Below are positions 24,164-31,680 of a stretch of 32,000 nucleotides of DNA, in pieces. Positions within the stretch are counted from its first letter, which is position 1, and every line of letters starts with the position of its first letter. The DNA is from an uncultured archaeon. GTDB taxonomy: Archaea > Asgardarchaeota > Thorarchaeia > Thorarchaeales > CAZPUN01. A program made the translations under genes and the position numbers. The stretch is taken from contig CAZPUN010000018.1 of assembly GCA_964589775.1 (NCBI GenBank), positions 1 through 32,000 of the forward strand, in the 5' to 3' direction. The notes beneath the pieces were generated by a model, which saw only the letters and a list, made by a program, of their open reading frames with translations, did no database searches and was not told the origin of the DNA.

Positions 24164-24230
24164 AGTATATCAACTCGATTAAGAAAGTTAATTTAATTCG
24201 AGATTACAAAATAAAAAATAGAAAATAAAT

Positions 24231-25289
24231 TTATGGTTTCATCTGTGCCAATAAAGTTCGTAATCGGGGCTCTGCAAGCATAGCATTTTCAATCTGACAG
24301 ATCAGCTTTGTAGTAAGACCTTCAATAACACGGTCAACCTCGTCAGTCTTCTTGTCTTCTGCTTTCTTCAGATGCGATTCTGCCTTTTTCTGTAGCATCT
24401 TTAAAATTCGTTTTTCAAGGTCGGGTCCACCCCAATCAAAGCTTAGAAATTCACGGCGACTCTCTGAAATTATAGATTCAAGATTATATTTTGCATCATT
24501 AAGTAAAACAGATGCACTTTCAAAATATTTTGAAACAGCGCGCCTAACACGTTCCTCTTCAGTTGCACTTAGATATTTCTCTTCAGGACGTTTATGCTTT
24601 AATTCAATAAGTAAGCGCGCCCCAGGTGCTTCTGATAATAAAGATTTTACTATGGACATGATTGCCAAAGTTGGAATCTCAATAATTTTATCCATAAGCT
24701 CTGTTCGTGCAGTATATCGGTGTAGTTCTTTTATTGCTTCGCTCCAGAATAACGGAATTATTATGTGTGCCCTACGGGAATAATCATCAATCATTCGTTC
24801 GATATTAGCAACGTAACCGAATCGATCATTAATGTCTTTGGTGCGTTTAAACTCATCTTTTTCGGGCTCGGGAGGTGTTGTGGGAATTAAATCTAATAAA
24901 CCACTCTGAGGCGGATTAGATTGACCGGGAATAGGACCTGTAGGCACAGGAGCACTGCCTTCTATCATTCCTGTAGAAGTTGGTGTTGGCTTTGAAATTG
25001 GGTGTACCTTTGAAAGATTGACCAAGTCTGGTAATAATTGCTCAATTTGAGAGATTCGCTTTACAATTAATGAAAGAATATTTACTGTTGAGGATTTTAA
25101 TGATGAATTCAAAGACATTTCTTCCATCCAGGATCTAGCTCTTGCAAGGCCTTGCCTGAGGCTGTCTACTTTATCGGGATCTACTTCCTGACTCAGTTGG
25201 ATGTTGATTAAGAACTGAATTAGTGTGGCATTTAATGTTGAAACCATTAGCATTTTGTCAATTAGGTCCTCAACAGGATACTCACTCAT
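24231..25289 (-). CDS. Hypothetical two-domain helical protein with Pro-rich linker; third gene of the tubulin-like operon
   Basis: 352 aa; 8-bp overlap (ATGAGTGA) with the tubulin-like gene; SD AAGGAGTG; 13 Pro in residues 97-142. Confidence 0.85.
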   Translation of the reverse strand: MSEYPVEDLIDKMLMVSTLNATLIQFLINIQLSQEVDPDKVDSLRQGLARARSWMEEMSLNSSLKSSTVNILSLIVKRISQIEQLLPDLVNLSKVHPISKPTPTSTGMIEGSAPVPTGPIPGQSNPPQSGLLDLIPTTPPEPEKDEFKRTKDINDRFGYVANIERMIDDYSRRAHIIIPLFWSEAIKELHRYTARTELMDKIIEIPTLAIMSIVKSLLSEAPGARLLIELKHKRPEEKYLSATEEERVRRAVSKYFESASVLLNDAKYNLESIISESRREFLSFDWGGPDLEKRILKMLQKKAESHLKKAEDKKTDEVDRVIEGLTTKLICQIENAMLAEPRLRTLLAQMKP

Positions 25290-26679
25290 TTAGAGGCACT
25301 CCTTCTGTTTCAGCCATATAATAGCTAAACAATTCCTTTACGTCATTTATTGCATCCACAAGTTCTTTTCTGGGAACACCCTTGGAACGCATAAACCACG
25401 ATTGCTTCAATAAGGAAGGACCACTATGCAAATTAACTAACTGAGTTGCTTCATTTATAAGATGCGTCAATTCAGGAATCTTGGGTAGACCAAGAAGTGC
25501 CATAAATGTAGTAGGATGCTCCTCATCCTGATACTGAACATAACAAGGTGTTATTGCTGCACCCGGAGAAAGATATGGCTTCAACGCATCCTTAATATAA
25601 GGACCATATTCCGCACGAGCAACGTTCTTGTGTCCGGAGAATACGTAGAATACACTCTCAGCACTAGGATTATCACCAACATCAGCATAAGAACATTCTT
25701 TAATTGTGTAATCGACCATCGTAGAAATTTGCTTTGGCATACTACCTGCATCAGGAATAAGCCCTACATCATCATACAGTGCAGGAACCACAACAGGATC
25801 TAACCTACGCGAATAATCTGCAAGATCGGTATTCGGAAAGACATCTTTTCCGGGCTCATAAATTCCTGGGTTTAACATATGATCTACTGCTTTAAGAGCC
25901 AATGGGTTTACCAACTCGACGAAAGCTTGCTCCGTACGAAGATCCATTTCAGATTGTGAATCAATTGTAGACGGAACCATCTTTTCAACTTGAGAAACAT
26001 CTGCAATGTCTACATTCAATTCACGATGTAGAAATTCAATTGTTTCTCCACTTCGCCATGCAAGAACACGTTTTAGCATAGTTCGGTTACTTAACAGGAC
26101 CAATAGATCTGCGCCTCTATCTTGCAATTGGGCTCGCAGTAATTTTGAGATCGCCCAAATAGAGTTTAATGCTTCGCTGGATTGCCCCTCAAACGGCAAA
26201 ACGCCCATCACATAAACGAAAATCCTACGGTGTTCTTCTTCTTGAAAGCGTTGTTTCAATAATTCAATAAGAGCAGGAGTACCACCACAACCAGTACCAC
26301 CGCCCAGTGATGTGAAGATTACAAATCCAGATACACCTTCGAACCCTAGAGATCTTAATTGGTCTAAAATAATGTCCTTTGAATCAAGTACATATTGGTA
26401 ACCGTCCATGAAACGGCCACCGACACCTATATCACTGGAACCATATAGTAATGTATTTTCCTTTGGGATGCCATATTTCTTTCGAACTTTCAACAAGTCA
26501 GACCTATCAGTGTTAATTAACAGATACCCTCTAATTCGTTTGGGAAGGGATTTCTCTCTTGCCTGTGCAAGATACGAACCTACTAAGTTTGAACCGGCTT
26601 CTCCAATTCCAATAGCAAAAACTTCTGCAGTCCTACTTAATTCATCGTCAGCTCGTTCTTTTCCAAATAAATGTGACAT
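25282..26679 (-). CDS. Divergent tubulin/FtsZ-superfamily GTPase with tubulin-like C-terminal helices
   Basis: T1 GIGEAG, T2 INTDRSDL, T3 GVGG, T4 SLGGGTGCG, LPF.G...EALNS, LLSN, H7 AF...VN, T7 NTDLAD, C-terminal WF...GV...EL.DA...V.EL.S.Y. Confidence 0.9.
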   Translation of the reverse strand: MSHLFGKERADDELSRTAEVFAIGIGEAGSNLVGSYLAQAREKSLPKRIRGYLLINTDRSDLLKVRKKYGIPKENTLLYGSSDIGVGGRFMDGYQYVLDSKDIILDQLRSLGFEGVSGFVIFTSLGGGTGCGGTPALIELLKQRFQEEEHRRIFVYVMGVLPFEGQSSEALNSIWAISKLLRAQLQDRGADLLVLLSNRTMLKRVLAWRSGETIEFLHRELNVDIADVSQVEKMVPSTIDSQSEMDLRTEQAFVELVNPLALKAVDHMLNPGIYEPGKDVFPNTDLADYSRRLDPVVVPALYDDVGLIPDAGSMPKQISTMVDYTIKECSYADVGDNPSAESVFYVFSGHKNVARAEYGPYIKDALKPYLSPGAAITPCYVQYQDEEHPTTFMALLGLPKIPELTHLINEATQLVNLHSGPSLLKQSWFMRSKGVPRKELVDAINDVKELFSYYMAETEGVPLNE

Positions 26680-26698: not shown

Positions 26699-29392
26699 TT
26701 ATTTTCCTTCAATCATAGCTAGTGCAATTTCTTGCAAAGCCCAACTAAGATATGTTGATATATCTTTACGCGAGAATGTTTCTTTTATGCGTTTCTTCGC
26801 ATCTTCAATATACTTATCGCGTTCAGCTGGTGGAGCTCTGGGATTAAATCCACTTAGGTACATACGAAGTGTTTTATGCCAGTCATCAATCTCATCTAGT
26901 TTTCGGCGCCAACGCTCTCGAAGAGCTTGAATTTCTTCATAAGTACCTAGTAATTCAGATAACATACGAGCTTTCAAAAGATTTTCTTCTGCTTGCTCTA
27001 ACTGATTAAGTGGAAAGATTATTTCACTGAAATCGGATTTGTGCTTAGAATACACTCGTTGAACAGTACTGTAATAAGTAGTAGCAGCACGCAATTGCGC
27101 CTCGTAATCTTCTTTTTCCTTTTGATGTATATCTTTCAAGATCTTAAGCATCTCGTCTTGAATATTCGCAAGAGTTAAACATGTATCGAGCAATGGTTTA
27201 ATGCTTCGAGATTTCATTTCTAGCTGCGAAGGTACTTGATCAAGTAATCCTTTTAATTTTGCAATAATGTCAGGATCTACTTTATTACCCATGAGATCTA
27301 CCGCTTTTGTAAGTTGCGCCCATGAATCACGAGCCTTGTTTACGATTTTCTGCCTTAGTTCTGGAGCGGAGGTTATATTGGATAGTTCATCAAAAGCTGT
27401 TGCTGCAGCCTCAACATCAGAATATGACTTTGCACGAATTTCTTCGATCTTTTTAAGCTCCTCTTTTACATCAACACCAATTAATTCAGCCTTTTGTAGC
27501 AAATTAATTATATTGCCCATTTCAGAGTCCAGAATCGAGATAACAGAGCCTGCAATGTTCTTCTCATAGAGTTCGATCATCTTACGGGCAATCTTAGGTG
27601 CTTCAGACATTGAATTTATCGTAATGCCTAGATTACTAAGTTCATTGACAGCCTCAAGCATTTTCTCTGGAATCTCTAGACCCGCATTTAACAATCGGGT
27701 GTTAGCCAAACGAACTTTAACTGTAAGGCGATACCTAAGATTTTCCAATGCATCCTGAGCTTTTACGATTCCAGATTCTTTAACAGTTTTAAGATGATTT
27801 CGAATGGATTGGAAACTATTAAGCGTATCTAGAACATGTAATCCAGTATCCAAATGTGAAATTACAGGAACAAAGATATCCGCATATGCAGGCTTAATTG
27901 TCTGAAAGCCTTCTATCAAAGACATCAATTCTTGCTTTGAAGCATCTTTGAAATTATCAAGTCCTGAATTCACAGCGGCAATTAGATTCTTGAGTGAGGC
28001 AATAAGATAAACTAATGAAACATCTTGTTTGTCTATTTTCGGAATCTTTTTCATAAGTGTAGAAGTATCTAATACACCTTGTGCAGATGCCAATAATTCA
28101 TTTAGCTTTTCAGTGTAATTCTTAATTTCATTCATTACTATTTTTCGAATGTTTTCTAAGAAATCAGTACCACGAAGGTAAAATTTGACAAGCTCTGAAA
28201 TATTTGCTTTCTCAATTTTTTCTTCTACATTATCGACAAATTCTTTTACTTCATTAATATTGGGATATTCAATTAAGTCTTGGTTCTTTATGGCAGCATT
28301 TAGCTCGCTAATTATTGTAGATACTTTTTCTTTCAGAGCAATTCTAACACTAGATTGCCATTCAAGCATCTTTTGATAACCCATAAGCACAATATTTGGA
28401 TCATCAGTCTGAAGATTTTCTTGTGGTGGAGGTGGAATAACTTCGGATGTAGTCGGAATTCCGCCTTCTGCAATTAGGGAGGTTGTTTCATGCTTGATGT
28501 TGATAATTCGGTCTTGAATTAATCTAATTAACTTGGACTTTGCACTCTCATATTGCTGTTCTAATGAAAGCAATGTTGTAAGATTACTAGTCTTAGAAGC
28601 ATCACGTGCAATTAATCGTAAGGATTGTATGAAATCAATTGGAAGTTCAATTCCAAGGCGTGAAGCGGTCTCAGCTGATGCCTGAAGTGATTCTACATTA
28701 ATAATAATATTACCAGAAAGTGCTTTTCCTACTTCACCCTTTCGACCATCAAGGTATTTCTGCTCCACCAGAAGAGTTTCACGCATATCCAGTAAATCCT
28801 CAAGGCGGGTTTCAGCAATAGTCTCACGTGATGATGTAATTGGTACTTCTCCACGATCTATCTTTATGTGTCGATCATATGTATCCAATGTTCTCTTATT
28901 TTCATCAAGTAGAACCTTGAGATCCTTAATCAAACTCGAGATTAATTGCGAATAAATTTTTTCAAACGCAAATGCAAATTCATGTACAAGTTTCAAATCA
29001 TTATCATCAATACATGCGACATCTGGAAATGCAAGAGATTCCAATTGTCTTGCATATTGTGCATTGAACTCTCTAATTCGAGGTAATAGATCTCGAACTT
29101 CACGGTAACGTCTCTTTAAACGGTCATGGGCTAAACGTAATGTTTCGTAAAAGTCTGTTTCAAAATCGCCAGACATTTTATTTAGGCTTTCTTCTAATTT
29201 TTTCTTCTTTAAGAAATTAAGACCTGATGTTGATTTTATTTCGCGCTCAAGTTTGTCCAGCTTACTATATATAGTATAAAGGTTGCGCATCGCAGTTTCA
29301 ACTGCTTCGTTACCATCAGGATTTACAGTGTTCAGAGCACTCCTTATCTCAGAAAGTGTATCAATATTCTTTCGGTATCTTCGTAATTCCAA
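26699..29392 (-). CDS. Large all-helical repeat (rod-like) protein; first gene of the tubulin-like operon
   Basis: About 897 aa from TTG 29392 (SD-like AGGCGGG; ORF track start 29497). No Walker motif or TM segment; helix-cap motif recurring every 61-80 aa. Confidence 0.85.
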   Translation of the reverse strand: MELRRYRKNIDTLSEIRSALNTVNPDGNEAVETAMRNLYTIYSKLDKLEREIKSTSGLNFLKKKKLEESLNKMSGDFETDFYETLRLAHDRLKRRYREVRDLLPRIREFNAQYARQLESLAFPDVACIDDNDLKLVHEFAFAFEKIYSQLISSLIKDLKVLLDENKRTLDTYDRHIKIDRGEVPITSSRETIAETRLEDLLDMRETLLVEQKYLDGRKGEVGKALSGNIIINVESLQASAETASRLGIELPIDFIQSLRLIARDASKTSNLTTLLSLEQQYESAKSKLIRLIQDRIINIKHETTSLIAEGGIPTTSEVIPPPPQENLQTDDPNIVLMGYQKMLEWQSSVRIALKEKVSTIISELNAAIKNQDLIEYPNINEVKEFVDNVEEKIEKANISELVKFYLRGTDFLENIRKIVMNEIKNYTEKLNELLASAQGVLDTSTLMKKIPKIDKQDVSLVYLIASLKNLIAAVNSGLDNFKDASKQELMSLIEGFQTIKPAYADIFVPVISHLDTGLHVLDTLNSFQSIRNHLKTVKESGIVKAQDALENLRYRLTVKVRLANTRLLNAGLEIPEKMLEAVNELSNLGITINSMSEAPKIARKMIELYEKNIAGSVISILDSEMGNIINLLQKAELIGVDVKEELKKIEEIRAKSYSDVEAAATAFDELSNITSAPELRQKIVNKARDSWAQLTKAVDLMGNKVDPDIIAKLKGLLDQVPSQLEMKSRSIKPLLDTCLTLANIQDEMLKILKDIHQKEKEDYEAQLRAATTYYSTVQRVYSKHKSDFSEIIFPLNQLEQAEENLLKARMLSELLGTYEEIQALRERWRRKLDEIDDWHKTLRMYLSGFNPRAPPAERDKYIEDAKKRIKETFSRKDISTYLSWALQEIALAMIEGK

Positions 29393-29629
29393 CGCATTTA
29401 CCCGCCTTTCTTTTTTTTGACCTTTAGAACCTTTATTGAAATTAACATATTTAACTCTTTCAGATTTTAAGCACGCACTATTAAAGTATAGATTCATACT
29501 TCCATATAGGTATAACGTTTTTATTTCAATTAATCCGAAAGTACTAATAAATTAAACTATCAACATTGCTGTGCATCAATAATTTTTTATGGATAATTAT
29601 GTGCATTAACATAAAATTAGCTCAGGTCG

Positions 29630-30697
29630 TTGAAAACAAAAATGATTAGAAAACCAAAAGATAGAGATTTTATTCAAACACAAGAAGATCTCTTTTTCTG
29701 TATTGTTGATTATATTCATCCAGAGAATTATTATACAGCATATCTAAAATATATACCCTCAGATAAAGGGAAATGGCAATTTGGAGATACTCATTATTGG
29801 AGAGTATTGAATTTTTATCATGTATTTAATGTTGAAAAAACATTTGAATTTCTGAAAGAAAGATTTCCACATTATATCAGACATGATAAGTTCAGACATA
29901 TCGAAATGTCTATGGTTCCAAAGGAGAAAATAAAACAGTATTTTATCCCTGAAAACCGCTTTGCAACTATTGTAAATTCTCCAAAAAATAGATTAGAAAA
30001 AGACGCCATAGAAATCGCGGACAAAATCGCAAATGATGCAGGACTTGAGCTTAAGAATTTCGGAATTACAGGGTCTATTTTAATTGGGCTTGCAAATGAA
30101 AAGTTTTCAGATGTGGATCTTACAGTATATGGATTAAAGGAATCCCACAAAGTAAAACATGCATTAATAGAAATTAAGAATAAAAAGGATACAATTTATA
30201 AAATGCCCAGAGAACGCCAAGAAAAATGGATCATGGATAAACAAAAACAATTTGGCATACCTTATTCGCTATCAAAATATCTGTTAGATATGAAATGGAA
30301 TTATGGAATATTACAAAATAGGCGATACTTCTCAATTCATCCAATACGAAAAGATAATGAAATAAATGAAAAGTACGGCGAAAAGGAATATATTGATCTT
30401 GGATATATAAAAATCAAGGCGACTATCGTTGATGATAGCGAGGCAGTATTCTTACCAGCTATTTATAAAATAGAAAATGTTGAGATAATAGAAGGACCCA
30501 AAGTTGATAATCTTGTTAAAATAGTTTCATATGAAGGACTTTTTGGTGACATAACTACAAAAGATATGAAAATTATAGCCGCTGGAAAATTGGAGAAAGT
30601 AATTTGCAAAAATAAGACATATTACCGCGTAGTCTTGGGTGCAGGAGGCTTGAAAAAACCACAGTACATGGGACCTATGGAGTTGATTAATGCATGA
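29630..30697 (+). CDS. Pol-beta-superfamily nucleotidyltransferase, uncharacterised archaeal family (COG1665-like), copy 1
   Basis: FGITGSILIG...SDVDLTVYG; N-terminal DFI...HP...LKYIP; beta-rich C-terminal domain (FLPAIY...GKLE). Start TTG 29630 or ATG 29642. Confidence 0.8.
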   Translation: MKTKMIRKPKDRDFIQTQEDLFFCIVDYIHPENYYTAYLKYIPSDKGKWQFGDTHYWRVLNFYHVFNVEKTFEFLKERFPHYIRHDKFRHIEMSMVPKEKIKQYFIPENRFATIVNSPKNRLEKDAIEIADKIANDAGLELKNFGITGSILIGLANEKFSDVDLTVYGLKESHKVKHALIEIKNKKDTIYKMPRERQEKWIMDKQKQFGIPYSLSKYLLDMKWNYGILQNRRYFSIHPIRKDNEINEKYGEKEYIDLGYIKIKATIVDDSEAVFLPAIYKIENVEIIEGPKVDNLVKIVSYEGLFGDITTKDMKIIAAGKLEKVICKNKTYYRVVLGAGGLKKPQYMGPMELINA

Positions 30698-31680
30698 AGA
30701 AACGAAAGCCAATAGACGGCGATGCAATTCTCACAAATGATGGGTTTTTATTTTACACATTTGGATATGAGCATCCAAAAGGTCGATATTATGGATTCCT
30801 AAAATATATTCCAATAGATTATCAAAAATTATTCAATATTGAATGGTTACCCACAAAATGGATTCTTAATGGGCATACTGTAGTTAGACCGGCTGAGCTA
30901 TATAGTCCTAGATCATATAGAGAAATATTAAACACGTTAAAAGGACATTTCCAGAAATATATTTGGTTTAATGATGATTTAAAAAAAGAAATGATTACGG
31001 TTCCTGAAAATGAAATTGAAAAAATTTATCGTCCTAATGAATCACTCATGAAATTGTATAACAAAAAAGAAAAAGACAAGTTAGAAATAGCAGCAATACA
31101 AATAATTGAATTACTTGCAGAACATTCAGGGGTTTCAATATCAAATTTTGGAATCCATGGTTCAATAAGCTTAGGGTCACATGACCCGGATAGAAGCGAT
31201 GTAGACATTTCAGTATATGGGGCTTTAAACTTCAGGCAAGTTTTAGATTCAATGAAAGCACTTGAAAAGAACAAAATTATACAGATAAGTAGAAGAAATG
31301 ATATAGAGCGAATTAAACAAAATACCGCATTTTATAAAAACACACGGTTTGTAGTAAATGCTACTAGACTACCAGAAGAAATTCCCAGATATGATAGAAC
31401 ACACTATGCAATCGGAATTATTTCTGCAGTTTGTAAAGTTATAGATGATATGGAATCAGTTTTTAGACCAGCCATATATAATGTAAAATGCGAAAATCAA
31501 ACAATTAATGTTCCAATTAAAAATGTTGTAAGCAATATAGGAATGCATAGATTCCTAGCAAAGAAAAATGATAAAATTAGGGTTAAAGGAATATTGGAAA
31601 AAATACATGAAAATAATAAAAAATACTATGAAATAGTAATAGGAACAGGAGCTCCAGATGAATTCTTTAAAGTGCTGTGA
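30694..31680 (+). CDS. Pol-beta-superfamily nucleotidyltransferase (COG1665-like), copy 2
   Basis: FGIHGSISLG...SDVDISVYG; HP...LKYIP; FRPAIY...GILE; ATGA overlap with copy 1. Confidence 0.8.
   Translation: MKKRKPIDGDAILTNDGFLFYTFGYEHPKGRYYGFLKYIPIDYQKLFNIEWLPTKWILNGHTVVRPAELYSPRSYREILNTLKGHFQKYIWFNDDLKKEMITVPENEIEKIYRPNESLMKLYNKKEKDKLEIAAIQIIELLAEHSGVSISNFGIHGSISLGSHDPDRSDVDISVYGALNFRQVLDSMKALEKNKIIQISRRNDIERIKQNTAFYKNTRFVVNATRLPEEIPRYDRTHYAIGIISAVCKVIDDMESVFRPAIYNVKCENQTINVPIKNVVSNIGMHRFLAKKNDKIRVKGILEKIHENNKKYYEIVIGTGAPDEFFKVL

What the first reader, a model, noticed from the sequence alone, without database searches (positions are those of the whole stretch)
25282..26679. GTPase is a mosaic of FtsZ/CetZ-like and true tubulin-like signatures
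Seen, compared by eye with recalled references. FtsZ/CetZ-like: T2 INTDRSDL and the short H1-S2 region. Tubulin-like: IILDQLRSL..EGVSGFVIFTSLGGGTGCG vs alpha-tubulin LVLDRIRKL...TGLQGFLVFHSFGGGTGSG; EALNSI vs EPYNSI; T7-H8 NTDLADYSRRLDP (25795-25833) vs NVDLTEFQTNLVP. The acidic catalytic residue is retained, so a GTP-hydrolysing homopolymer is plausible. Unusual: Cys in GGGTGCG and Glu in T1 (GEAG where tubulin/CetZ have GQxG). Inference: a lineage separate from FtsZ, CetZ, artubulin, OdinTubulin and AtubA/B that could inform tubulin origins.
Basis: partly seen in the sequence, partly recalled or inferred. Interest (0 to 1): 0.85.

Follow-up and report, generated by a model that had tools for sequence, protein, structure and literature searches.

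The report
Asgard tubulin-like GTPase (Asg.Tub) gene
This gene encodes an intact tubulin/FtsZ-type GTPase of the Asgard-only "Asg.Tub" family, which was named in 2023 but has no bench study that I could find. It sits in a fixed three-gene operon with two unknown helical proteins, so it is probably an unexplored filament system in the archaea closest to eukaryotes.

Summary
Glu in T1, Cys in GGGTGCG and the T7 Asp are invariant in 21 diverse homologues.

The inference of "a separate lineage" is right but not new. The protein belongs to the Asgard clade that Santana-Molina et al. 2023 called "Asg.Tub" (CetZ-like). A 2026 Asgard-tubulin paper uses what is probably the same clade as an outgroup.

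In my trees the clade stands apart from CetZ, FtsZ and Tubulin_C-bearing Asgard tubulins, each with about 97-100 support. Its deep position is unresolved. AU tests reject neither a CetZ-side nor a tubulin-side placement. Profile comparison favours CetZ. The predicted fold ties with OdinTubulin and CetZ.

What I add:
- The family occurs in 126 of 400 Asgard species genomes.
- It never co-occurs with true tubulins in that sample.
- In 20 of 20 loci from 8 families it follows a ~900-1170-aa all-helical protein. In 18 of 20 it precedes a ~300-380-aa protein.

The likely function is a GTP-driven filament with two dedicated partners; this is inferred, not shown. The scan reached the same reading before on other genomes.

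The parts
25282..26679 (-). Asg.Tub gene: 465-aa tubulin/FtsZ-superfamily GTPase (P0001)
   Evidence: ORF. PF00091 scores 65.7 bits. AF2 model has pLDDT 82.4 and pTM 0.85. VIA-align gives Z 35 to OdinTubulin and to CetZ. Family members are 51-98% identical.
26587..26610 (-). T1 loop GIGEAGSN (residues 24-31), with invariant Glu27 where tubulin and CetZ have Gln
26281..26304 (-). T4 signature GGGTGCGG (residues 126-133), with invariant Cys131
25930..26061 (-). Insertion of about 40 aa between H6 and H7 (residues ~207-250). It is specific to the family and partly low-confidence in the model.
   Evidence: The alignment shows it is absent from CetZ, FtsZ, tubulins and the sister sequence P0125. 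pLDDT is 54-66 over residues 221-250.
25816..25833 (-). T7 loop NTDLAD (residues 283-288); Asp288 is the presumed GTPase-activating residue
   Evidence: Invariant T284, D285 and D288. It aligns with FtsZ NLDFAD and OdinTubulin NMDLME.
25315..25476 (-). C-terminal helices (residues 402-455), which superpose on tubulin H11-H12 in the predicted model
   Evidence: Helices at 402-417, 423-432 and 437-455. Tubulin alignments run to model residues 458-462, whereas solved CetZ chains stop at ~416-426. The profile match to the tubulin H12 region is weak: E 0.005 over 33 columns.
26699..29497 (-). Upstream operon partner: 932-aa all-alpha protein with no Pfam family, 19 nt before the GTPase gene
   Evidence: No Pfam or NCBIfam hit. 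Homologues lie directly upstream of Asg.Tub in 20 of 20 further loci and in L003, L005, L006 and L032. The C-terminal half models as helical-bundle repeats at pLDDT 90.5.
24231..25289 (-). Downstream operon partner: 352-aa protein with an N-terminal helical part, a Pro-rich linker and a conserved C-terminal domain. Its start overlaps the GTPase stop by 8 nt.
   Evidence: No Pfam hit. Homologues lie directly downstream in 18 of 20 loci and in L003, L006 and L032. Alignment A2.
24200..24230 (-). T-rich tract just after the last gene of the operon; possibly an archaeal oligo-T terminator (inference)
   Evidence: Sequence printed.

Best explanation
The gene encodes a member of Asg.Tub, an Asgard-restricted branch of the tubulin/FtsZ superfamily. 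The branch is related to CetZ-like proteins but lies outside canonical CetZ, FtsZ and true tubulins.

Shown:
- It has the complete two-domain tubulin fold, by prediction.
- It has all nucleotide-binding loops.
- It has an invariant acidic T7 residue.

Inferred:
- It binds GTP and polymerises head to tail into protofilaments. Asp288 of one subunit would complete the GTPase site of the next, giving a dynamic homopolymer.
- The filament works with the two proteins encoded in the same operon. One is a ~900-1170-aa rod of helical-bundle repeats, a possible scaffold, cross-linker or anchor. The other is a ~300-380-aa two-domain adaptor.
- The module is a cytoskeletal or membrane/shape system separate from FtsZ-based division, because FtsZ is encoded elsewhere in the genome.
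For: Family assignment:
- 120 listed homologues, all Asgard-labelled where named, are 51-98% identical.
- The C-terminal half matches the published Asg.Tub alignment.
- P0112, from Heimdallarchaeota LC_3 and 454 aa long, matches the published member's organism and length.
- The clade has SH-aLRT 98.

Fold:
- The AF2 model has pLDDT 82.4.
- VIA-align gives Z 35.5 to OdinTubulin with 367 residues aligned, Z 35.0 to CetZ, and Z 34.6 to beta-tubulin.

Catalytic set-up:
- Invariant G24, G26, E27, G29 and N31 in T1.
- Invariant GGGTGCGG in T4.
- Invariant N172.
- Invariant T284, D285 and D288 in T7.

Operon:
- A 19-nt gap and an 8-nt overlap between the genes, with a T-rich tract after the last gene.
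- The same gene order in 20 of 20 (large partner) and 18 of 20 (small partner) loci from 8 GTDB families.
- Pairwise BLASTP E-values of 1e-19 to 9e-33 for the partners across classes.

Separate from division: the genome also has a canonical FtsZ with an FtsZ_C domain on contig 17.
Against: - There is no biochemical or cell-biological evidence for this family. No paper beyond the phylogenetic mentions was found.
- Ser/Thr to Cys in T4 and Gln to Glu in T1 could change nucleotide handling.
- The partner proteins have no recognisable family, and physical contact is inferred from conserved, translationally coupled gene order only.
- The second paralogous copy in one family lacks the small partner, so the triad is not obligatory.
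Confidence: 0.7

Rival explanations
1. It is simply a divergent orthologue of CetZ, the euryarchaeal cell-shape tubulin-like protein, and works as CetZ does.
For: - The best sequence hits in PDB are CetZ1 (4b46, E 6e-11) and M. thermophila CetZ (3zid).
- hhalign of the family profile against a CetZ profile gives E 1.4e-27 over 349 columns covering both domains. Tubulin and FtsZ profiles align only over the N-terminal domain.
- One member is annotated 'Tubulin-like protein CetZ'.
- Santana-Molina et al. judge the group closer to CetZ than to tubulin on indels.
- The AU test does not reject Asg.Tub+CetZ as one group (p 0.076).
Against: - Proteins carrying Pfam CetZ_C form their own clade (SH-aLRT 98) that excludes Asg.Tub.
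- 0 of 21 members hit CetZ_C even at E<=10, while CetZ representatives score 1e-16 to 1e-54.
- T1 has Glu where CetZ has Gln, T4 has Cys, there is a ~40-aa insertion, and there is an extra C-terminal helix pair.
- The gene context is unrelated to that of CetZ.
Confidence: 0.15
2. It is a stem or sister lineage of true tubulins retained in Asgard archaea: a 'proto-tubulin' that fills the role of tubulin in lineages lacking AtubA/B or OdinTubulin.
For: - The constrained tree joining Asg.Tub and its sisters with the Tubulin_C clade had a log-likelihood 7.7 higher than the free quick-search tree (p-AU 0.74).
- Santana-Molina's Figure 4 also placed the group basal to tubulins.
- The H3-T4 segment is the only part that alpha-tubulins match in phmmer.
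- The predicted C-terminal helices superpose on tubulin H11-H12.
- In 400 Asgard genomes, 126 carry Asg.Tub and 8 carry Tubulin_C proteins, with no overlap at genome or family level.
Against: - T2, the short H1-S2 loop and the T1 'GSN' ending are FtsZ/CetZ-like.
- There is no Tubulin_C hit.
- The profile match to tubulins is confined to the N domain and is weaker than to FtsZ.
- The backbone support is 43, and both stems are long, so long-branch attraction is possible.
- The non-overlap rests on 4 tubulin-bearing families. About 2.5 overlaps would be expected by chance, and the genomes are not independent.
Confidence: 0.12
3. It is a second division protein that stands in for the FtsZ paralogue missing from this genome.
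For: This genome shows one FtsZ_C-bearing gene, whereas 12 of 12 relatives in the same order show two.
Against: - Those relatives, which have both FtsZ paralogues, also carry Asg.Tub, so it is not a replacement.
- The genome is 96.75% complete, so the missing FtsZ may simply be unassembled.
- There is no FtsZ_C domain and no FtsZ-type tail.
Confidence: 0.03

Closest known systems
Asg.Tub (Asgardarchaeota 'CetZ-like' tubulin paralogues; Santana-Molina, del Saz-Navarro & Devos 2023, Front Microbiol 13:1100249, PMC9871819)
   Same: - Same family. The C-terminal half matches the published four-sequence alignment block by block: FVELVNPLAL, TDLADYxRKLDPVVVPALY, LGLPKIPEL, LVNLHSG, WFMRSKG.
- Restricted to Asgard archaea.
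- Neighbouring genes encode coiled-coil or helical proteins of unknown function.
- Unstable deep position between CetZ and tubulins.
   Different: Nothing differs in kind; this is a further member, 98% identical to a protein already in NCBI. The paper had 4 sequences (2 Heimdall, 2 Thor). Here the family is seen in 126 of 400 Asgard species genomes across at least 8 families, with a fixed three-gene order.
CetZ (Haloferax volcanii CetZ1/CetZ2, PDB 4b46/4b45; Duggin et al. 2015)
   Same: - The best PDB sequence hit.
- Full-length profile alignment at E 1.4e-27.
- Fold Z 35.0.
- FtsZ/CetZ-type T2 and a short H1-S2 loop.
   Different: - No Pfam CetZ_C hit in 0 of 21 members.
- A separate clade.
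- Glu instead of Gln in T1, and Cys in T4.
- A ~40-aa H6-H7 insertion.
- About 40 more C-terminal residues that model as a further helix pair.
- A different gene neighbourhood.
Asgard and eukaryotic tubulins (OdinTubulin, PDB 7evb; AtubA/B, PDB 9f6t; alpha/beta-tubulin)
   Same: - Fold Z 35.5 with 367 residues aligned, including the C-terminal helices.
- Local similarity in the H3-S4-T4 stretch.
- A T7 N-x-D-x-x-acid motif.
   Different: - No Tubulin_C domain.
- No long H1-S2 loop.
- T2 is NTD, not DLEP, and T1 is GEAGSN, not GQxGNQ.
- The profile match covers the N domain only.
- A single gene, so no A/B heterodimer pair.
- Never found in the same genome as Tubulin_C proteins in the sample.
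Tubulin-family filaments with operon-encoded accessory proteins (BtubA/B-BtubC; TubZ-TubR-TubY)
   Same: A tubulin-superfamily gene in a tight operon with dedicated non-enzymatic partner genes. This is a comparison by analogy, from general knowledge.
   Different: The partners here share no detectable sequence or fold family with BtubC, TubR or TubY. No DNA-binding domain or centromere-like repeats were looked for or seen.

Membership tests
Tubulin/FtsZ superfamily | GTPase domain matching Pfam PF00091 above the gathering score | tested here: met
   65.7 bits against a cut-off of 33, residues 19-203. 21 of 21 family members match.
Tubulin/FtsZ superfamily | T4 signature GGGTG(S/T)G | tested here: met
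   GGGTGCG: Cys replaces Ser/Thr and is invariant in the family. All glycines and the Thr are kept.
Tubulin/FtsZ superfamily | Two-domain fold (Rossmann-like GTPase domain, core helix H7, C-terminal activation domain) | tested here: met
   AF2 model with pLDDT 82.4. VIA-align Z 34-35.5 to tubulins and CetZ over residues ~17-460. This is a predicted structure, not a solved one.
Tubulin/FtsZ superfamily | Acidic catalytic residue in T7 (FtsZ NxDFAD, alpha-tubulin E254) | tested here: met
   NTDLAD, with D288 invariant and aligned to the FtsZ Asp and the OdinTubulin Glu.
Tubulin/FtsZ superfamily | GTP-dependent polymerisation and polymerisation-dependent GTPase activity | not testable with these tools
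   Needs purified protein.
Asg.Tub (Santana-Molina et al. 2023) | Close sequence kinship with the published members, including their family-specific C-terminal domain | tested here: met
   The published C-terminal alignment matches residues ~245-465 throughout. P0112 (Heimdallarchaeota LC_3, 454 aa) is 52% identical at E 3e-151.
Asg.Tub (Santana-Molina et al. 2023) | Monophyletic Asgard-only group outside canonical CetZ, FtsZ and tubulins | tested here: met
   The clade has SH-aLRT 98. The other clades have 97-100. Named homologues are all Asgard, apart from a few mis-binned MAG labels.
Asg.Tub (Santana-Molina et al. 2023) | Neighbouring genes encode coiled-coil or helical proteins of unknown function | tested here: met
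CetZ | C-terminal domain matching Pfam CetZ_C (PF21011) | tested here: not met
   0 of 21 members at E<=10. CetZ representatives score 1e-16 to 1e-54. hhalign of the C domain alone gives a weak match: E 7.8e-5, probability 61%.
CetZ | Placement inside the CetZ clade | tested here: not met
   The CetZ_C-bearing rows form one side of a branch (support 98) without Asg.Tub. A sister relation is not rejected (p-AU 0.076).
CetZ | T1 motif GxGQxG | tested here: not met
   GIGEAG, with an invariant Glu.
FtsZ | FtsZ_C domain (PF12327) and the TIGR00065 equivalog score | tested here: not met
   No FtsZ_C hit. TIGR00065 scores 29.2 bits against a cut-off of 295.2. The genome's real FtsZ is on contig 17.
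Tubulin proper (eukaryotic, OdinTubulin, AtubA/B, BtubA/B) | Tubulin_C domain (PF03953) | tested here: not met
   No hit in 21 members at E<=10. Asgard tubulins score 1e-12 to 4e-28.
Tubulin proper (eukaryotic, OdinTubulin, AtubA/B, BtubA/B) | Tubulin-type T1 (GQxGNQ), T2 (DLEP) and a long H1-S2 loop | tested here: not met
   Alignment.
Tubulin proper (eukaryotic, OdinTubulin, AtubA/B, BtubA/B) | C-terminal H11-H12 helical hairpin on the outer surface | tested here: inconclusive
   The predicted helices at 402-455 superpose on tubulin to residue ~460. However, this is a model, the profile match is weak (E 0.005), and full-length CetZ tails are not in the solved chains.

The most novel reading that the evidence does not exclude
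Asg.Tub and its two fixed partners form an Asgard-specific filament system. This system would be the closest surviving relative of the tubulin lineage, and it would fill the tubulin role in the many Asgard lineages (Thor, Hod/Heimdall, Baldr and others) that lack AtubA/B or OdinTubulin. It would then be a missing step between CetZ-like filaments and microtubule-forming tubulins.
Probability: 0.12. Interest if true: 0.85.

Novelty: new member of a known kind. Interest (0 to 1): 0.45.

Why it matters
[quoted passage not shown] Asg.Tub is widespread in them: about a third of sampled species genomes, and near-universal in Thorarchaeia-type and several Heimdall/Hod-type families. It is strongly conserved, with 51-74% identity across classes. 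I found no bench study of it.

Three observations turn a phylogenetic footnote into a testable three-protein module:
- The fixed operon with two lineage-specific helical proteins.
- The absence of the family from genomes that carry true tubulins.
- The ambiguous placement between CetZ and tubulin.

Tried and rejected
- **Complex prediction.** Asg.Tub (alignment A1) with the small partner (alignment A2) scored 0.00 and gave no verdict. This is not evidence either way.
- **ESM Atlas.** Look-ups for both partner proteins gave no usable relatives. The large partner only found its own Thorarchaeota cluster.
- **Fold search, large partner.** Foldseek of its C-terminal half against PDB found nothing at E<=0.001.
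- **EzrA lead.** The VIA-align wide search gave as best hit the cytoplasmic domain of the FtsZ regulator EzrA (4uy3, Z 10.2, rmsd 9.9 Å, 122 residues aligned). That is below the roughly Z 13 noise level for helical repeats, so the EzrA-like reading is a lead and not a finding.
- **Family libraries.** Pfam and NCBIfam found no family for either partner.
- **Sister protein's neighbour.** The downstream 262-aa gene next to the sister protein P0125 is not homologous to the small partner.
- **Canonical CetZ, FtsZ or tubulin.** Each was considered and rejected because a defining C-terminal domain or clade test failed.
- **FtsZ replacement.** Considered and rejected because relatives with two FtsZ genes keep Asg.Tub.
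Full report
**What is there.** The minus-strand ORF 25282..26679 encodes 465 aa. Pfam places residues 19-203 in the Tubulin/FtsZ GTPase domain PF00091, at 65.7 bits against a cut-off of 33. No C-terminal domain model matches: not FtsZ_C, Tubulin_C or CetZ_C. NCBIfam's FtsZ equivalog scores 29 bits against a cut-off of 295.

The window has about 36% G+C. It also carries archaeal housekeeping genes: family-B DNA polymerase, UvrC, an eRF1/Pelota-like protein, ZnuABC and an FMN-dependent dehydrogenase-family gene. The assembly is 2.16 Mb and 96.75% complete.

**Motifs against references.** I aligned the protein with FtsZ from this genome and its relatives, CetZ_C-bearing proteins, and Tubulin_C-bearing Asgard tubulins.
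- T1 is GIGEAGSN. Glu stands where tubulin and CetZ have Gln, and the 'SN' ending is FtsZ-like.
- T2 is NTDRSDL, close to FtsZ NTDAQDL and CetZ NSARVDL. Tubulins have DLEP.
- The H1-S2 loop is short.
- H3-S4-T4 (…GVSGFVIFTSLGGGTGCG) is closest to tubulins (…LQGFLIIHTLGGGTGSG). In a phmmer search of PDB, alpha-tubulins match only residues 95-153 (E about 1e-4). CetZ1 (4b46) matches residues 22-222 at 6e-11.
- T7 is NTDLAD. Asp288 sits in the column of the FtsZ NLDFAD Asp and the OdinTubulin NMDLME Glu.
- An insertion of about 40 aa (residues ~207-250) lies between H6 and H7. It is absent from all the other groups.

In 21 homologues that are 51-74% identical, E27, C131, T284, D285 and D288 are invariant. 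The mosaic description is therefore accurate and describes a family, not an accident of one sequence. Glu in T1 also occurs in two neighbouring divergent groups, so it is not unique.

**Family and literature.** The big-database search returned 156 relatives at E<=0.001, of which the best 120 are listed. Where named, they are Thor-, Loki/Promethe-, Hod-, Heimdall-, Hermod- and 'Asgardarchaeia' MAG proteins, nearly all 'hypothetical'. One LC_3 protein is named 'Tubulin-like protein CetZ'. A further 50%-identity cluster is labelled Baldrarchaeia/Odinarchaeota.

Santana-Molina, del Saz-Navarro & Devos (2023, PMC9871819) describe 'Asg.Tub' as follows:
- It is an Asgardarchaeota paralogue group.
- It branches between CetZ and tubulins, or with CetZ, depending on the dataset.
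- Its C-terminal domain matches nothing else.
- Its neighbours are coiled-coil genes of unknown function.
- The authors judge it closer to CetZ on indels.

Their supplementary C-terminal alignment has four sequences: two Heimdall, including LC-3, and two Thor. It is visibly the same family as residues ~245-465 here. No other paper uses the name. [quoted passage not shown] This is probably the same clade, which I could not verify. I found no functional study.

**Phylogeny.** I searched 1.84 billion representatives with the family profile. Only 163 hits came back at E<=1e-3, and the family collapses to two full-length 50% clusters. I combined the full-length hits with two other sets:
- Tubulin_C-bearing proteins from eight Asgard genomes.
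- FtsZ_C-bearing proteins from this genome and its relatives.

FastTree on 131 rows and IQ-TREE (LG+C20+F+G4 PMSF, 56 rows by 393 columns) agree:

| Group | SH-aLRT |
|---|---|
| Asg.Tub | 98 |
| Asg.Tub plus four divergent sequences (P0125, P0136, P0134, P0149) | 97 |
| CetZ_C-bearing proteins | 98 |
| FtsZ | 97 |
| Tubulins | 100 |
| A 'GGGTGNG' CetZ-like group | 100 |

The backbone support is only 43. AU tests gave two results:
- Holding Asg.Tub with CetZ costs 13.9 log-likelihood units (p 0.076, not rejected).
- Holding it with the tubulin clade gave a tree 7.7 units better than the free quick search (p 0.74).

The deep position is open and long branches are involved. Artubulins, TubZ and PhuZ were not in the data.

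**Profile and fold comparison.** hhalign of the family profile gave these matches:

| Target profile | E-value | Coverage |
|---|---|---|
| CetZ | 1.4e-27 | 349 columns, both domains |
| 'GGGTGNG' group | 3.3e-29 | 329 columns |
| FtsZ | 5.8e-19 | N domain only |
| Asgard tubulins | 5.4e-16 | N domain only |

The C domain taken alone matches CetZ at 7.8e-5 and tubulin only over 33 columns at the last helix (E 0.005).

None of 21 members hits CetZ_C, FtsZ_C or Tubulin_C at E<=10. CetZ representatives hit CetZ_C at 1e-16 to 1e-54.

The AF2 model (pLDDT 82.4, pTM 0.85) ties between three structure groups in VIA-align:
- OdinTubulin: Z 35.5, 367 residues aligned, model residues 16-459.
- CetZ1, CetZ2 and M. 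thermophila CetZ: Z 35.0, 324-329 residues aligned, model residues 18 to ~420.
- Beta-tubulin and BtubB: Z 34.6.

No FtsZ appears in the Foldseek top 50. The extra C-terminal helices (423-455) superpose on tubulin H11'-H12. This rests on a prediction, and solved CetZ chains lack their tails.

**Distribution.**
- Among 400 species genomes of the phylum, 126 have the gene at E<=1e-30.
- Positive families: 76 of 86 in the order that holds this genome, then 21/22, 15/19, 5/5, 4/4, 2/2, 1/1 and 1/1 in seven other families.
- Families with no hit: 0/135, 0/31, 0/14, 0/12 and 0/12 in five others.
- Tubulin_C proteins occur in 8 of the same 400 genomes, spread over four families.
- None of those 8 genomes or 4 families has Asg.Tub.
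- By chance about 2.5 overlaps would be expected and the genomes are related, so this is an observation and not a test.

**The operon.** In the window a 932-aa ORF (26699..29497) ends 19 nt before the GTPase gene. A 352-aa ORF (24231..25289) starts 8 nt before the GTPase stop. A T-rich tract follows the last gene. Neither neighbour has a Pfam or NCBIfam family or a transmembrane-like segment.

The same order was seen in Hod/Heimdall, 'Asgardarchaeia' and Baldr contigs, with significant pairwise similarity: 1e-19 to 9e-33 for the large protein and 2e-19 to 6e-24 for the small one. I then cut 20 further loci from 18 genomes of 8 families and searched them with HMMs of the partners.
- 20 of 20 have the large gene upstream on the same strand.
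- 18 of 20 have the small gene directly downstream.
- The two exceptions, and locus L005, are a second paralogous large-plus-GTPase pair found in one family.

The partners evolve faster than the GTPase. The small partner is 42% identical between this genome and Thorarchaeota, against 73% for the GTPase. The C-terminal half of the large protein models confidently (pLDDT 90.5) as a chain of helical bundles. Fold searches gave only generic helical matches. The top one was EzrA at Z 10.2, below the noise level for such folds.

**Mechanism.**
- Shown: an intact tubulin-superfamily gene with a conserved nucleotide pocket and T7 acid, under strong purifying selection, in a conserved and probably co-translated three-gene unit. 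A canonical FtsZ is encoded elsewhere.
- Inferred: GTP-dependent head-to-tail polymerisation with Asp288 activating hydrolysis. The rod-like large protein and the two-domain small protein would act as dedicated scaffold and adaptor. The role would be cytoskeletal rather than divisional.
- Not shown: any binding, polymerisation or expression.

**Verdict.** This is a new member of a known but biochemically unstudied family.

Earlier follow-ups of this scan on other genomes reached the same family assignment and the same three-gene cassette. I reached both independently before reading them.

Noticed in passing
G000 contig 17: 23201-24103 (locus L001); compare loci L019-L030: This genome shows only one FtsZ gene (FtsZ_C-bearing, ~376-382 aa). 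All 12 sampled relatives in the same order have two: one of ~420-460 aa and one of ~378 aa. The longer type is missing here. It may be lost or may lie in the unassembled ~3%.
   Followed up: partly
L031:8001-9374 (P0125) and P0136: These are a sister group to Asg.Tub from unnamed metagenome contigs. They share Glu in T1 (GIGEGG), Cys in T4 (AGGTGCG), an ADLMDY T7 and LGAPKIxEL. They lack the H6-H7 insertion and the large upstream partner. The 262-aa downstream gene is not homologous to the small partner.
   Followed up: partly
P0140, P0141, P0147, P0162, P0163, P0166, P0177, P0188, P0192 and others (one search hits): A well-supported clade of CetZ-like proteins has T4 GGGTGNG and often G(A/S)GE(G/A)G in T1. 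It has no CetZ_C domain. Some members are labelled Methanosarcinales or 'CetZ' by JGI. It is the best profile match to Asg.Tub (E 3.3e-29) but groups weakly with tubulins in the tree.
   Followed up: partly
L005:3569-8326; L046:2560-7331; L052:6003-10790: In one Heimdall/Hod-type family, many genomes carry a second paralogous pair (large partner plus Asg.Tub) without the small partner, in addition to the complete triad.
   Followed up: partly
L003:1-37; L005:8377-11905; L006:3532-4113: Arf-family small GTPase genes lie within a few kb of the operon in three of three first-sampled loci. One lies directly upstream of the large partner in L006. None is in this window. Small GTPases are abundant in Asgard genomes, so this may be chance.
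   Followed up: no
L006:7001-8323: In this 'Asgardarchaeia' contig the Asg.Tub gene is called as 389 aa plus a 42-aa fragment, which suggests a frameshift or an assembly error near the C-terminus.
   Followed up: no
window 29630-31680 (+): Two adjacent paralogous ORFs of 355 and 328 aa have only marginal hits to the nucleotidyltransferase domain PF01909. They are divergently oriented from the operon's upstream region.
   Followed up: no
window 26699-29497 (-): The annotated ATG at 29497 gives an N-terminus (MNLYFNSACLK...) that is not conserved in homologues. The true start of the large partner may lie further downstream.
   Followed up: no
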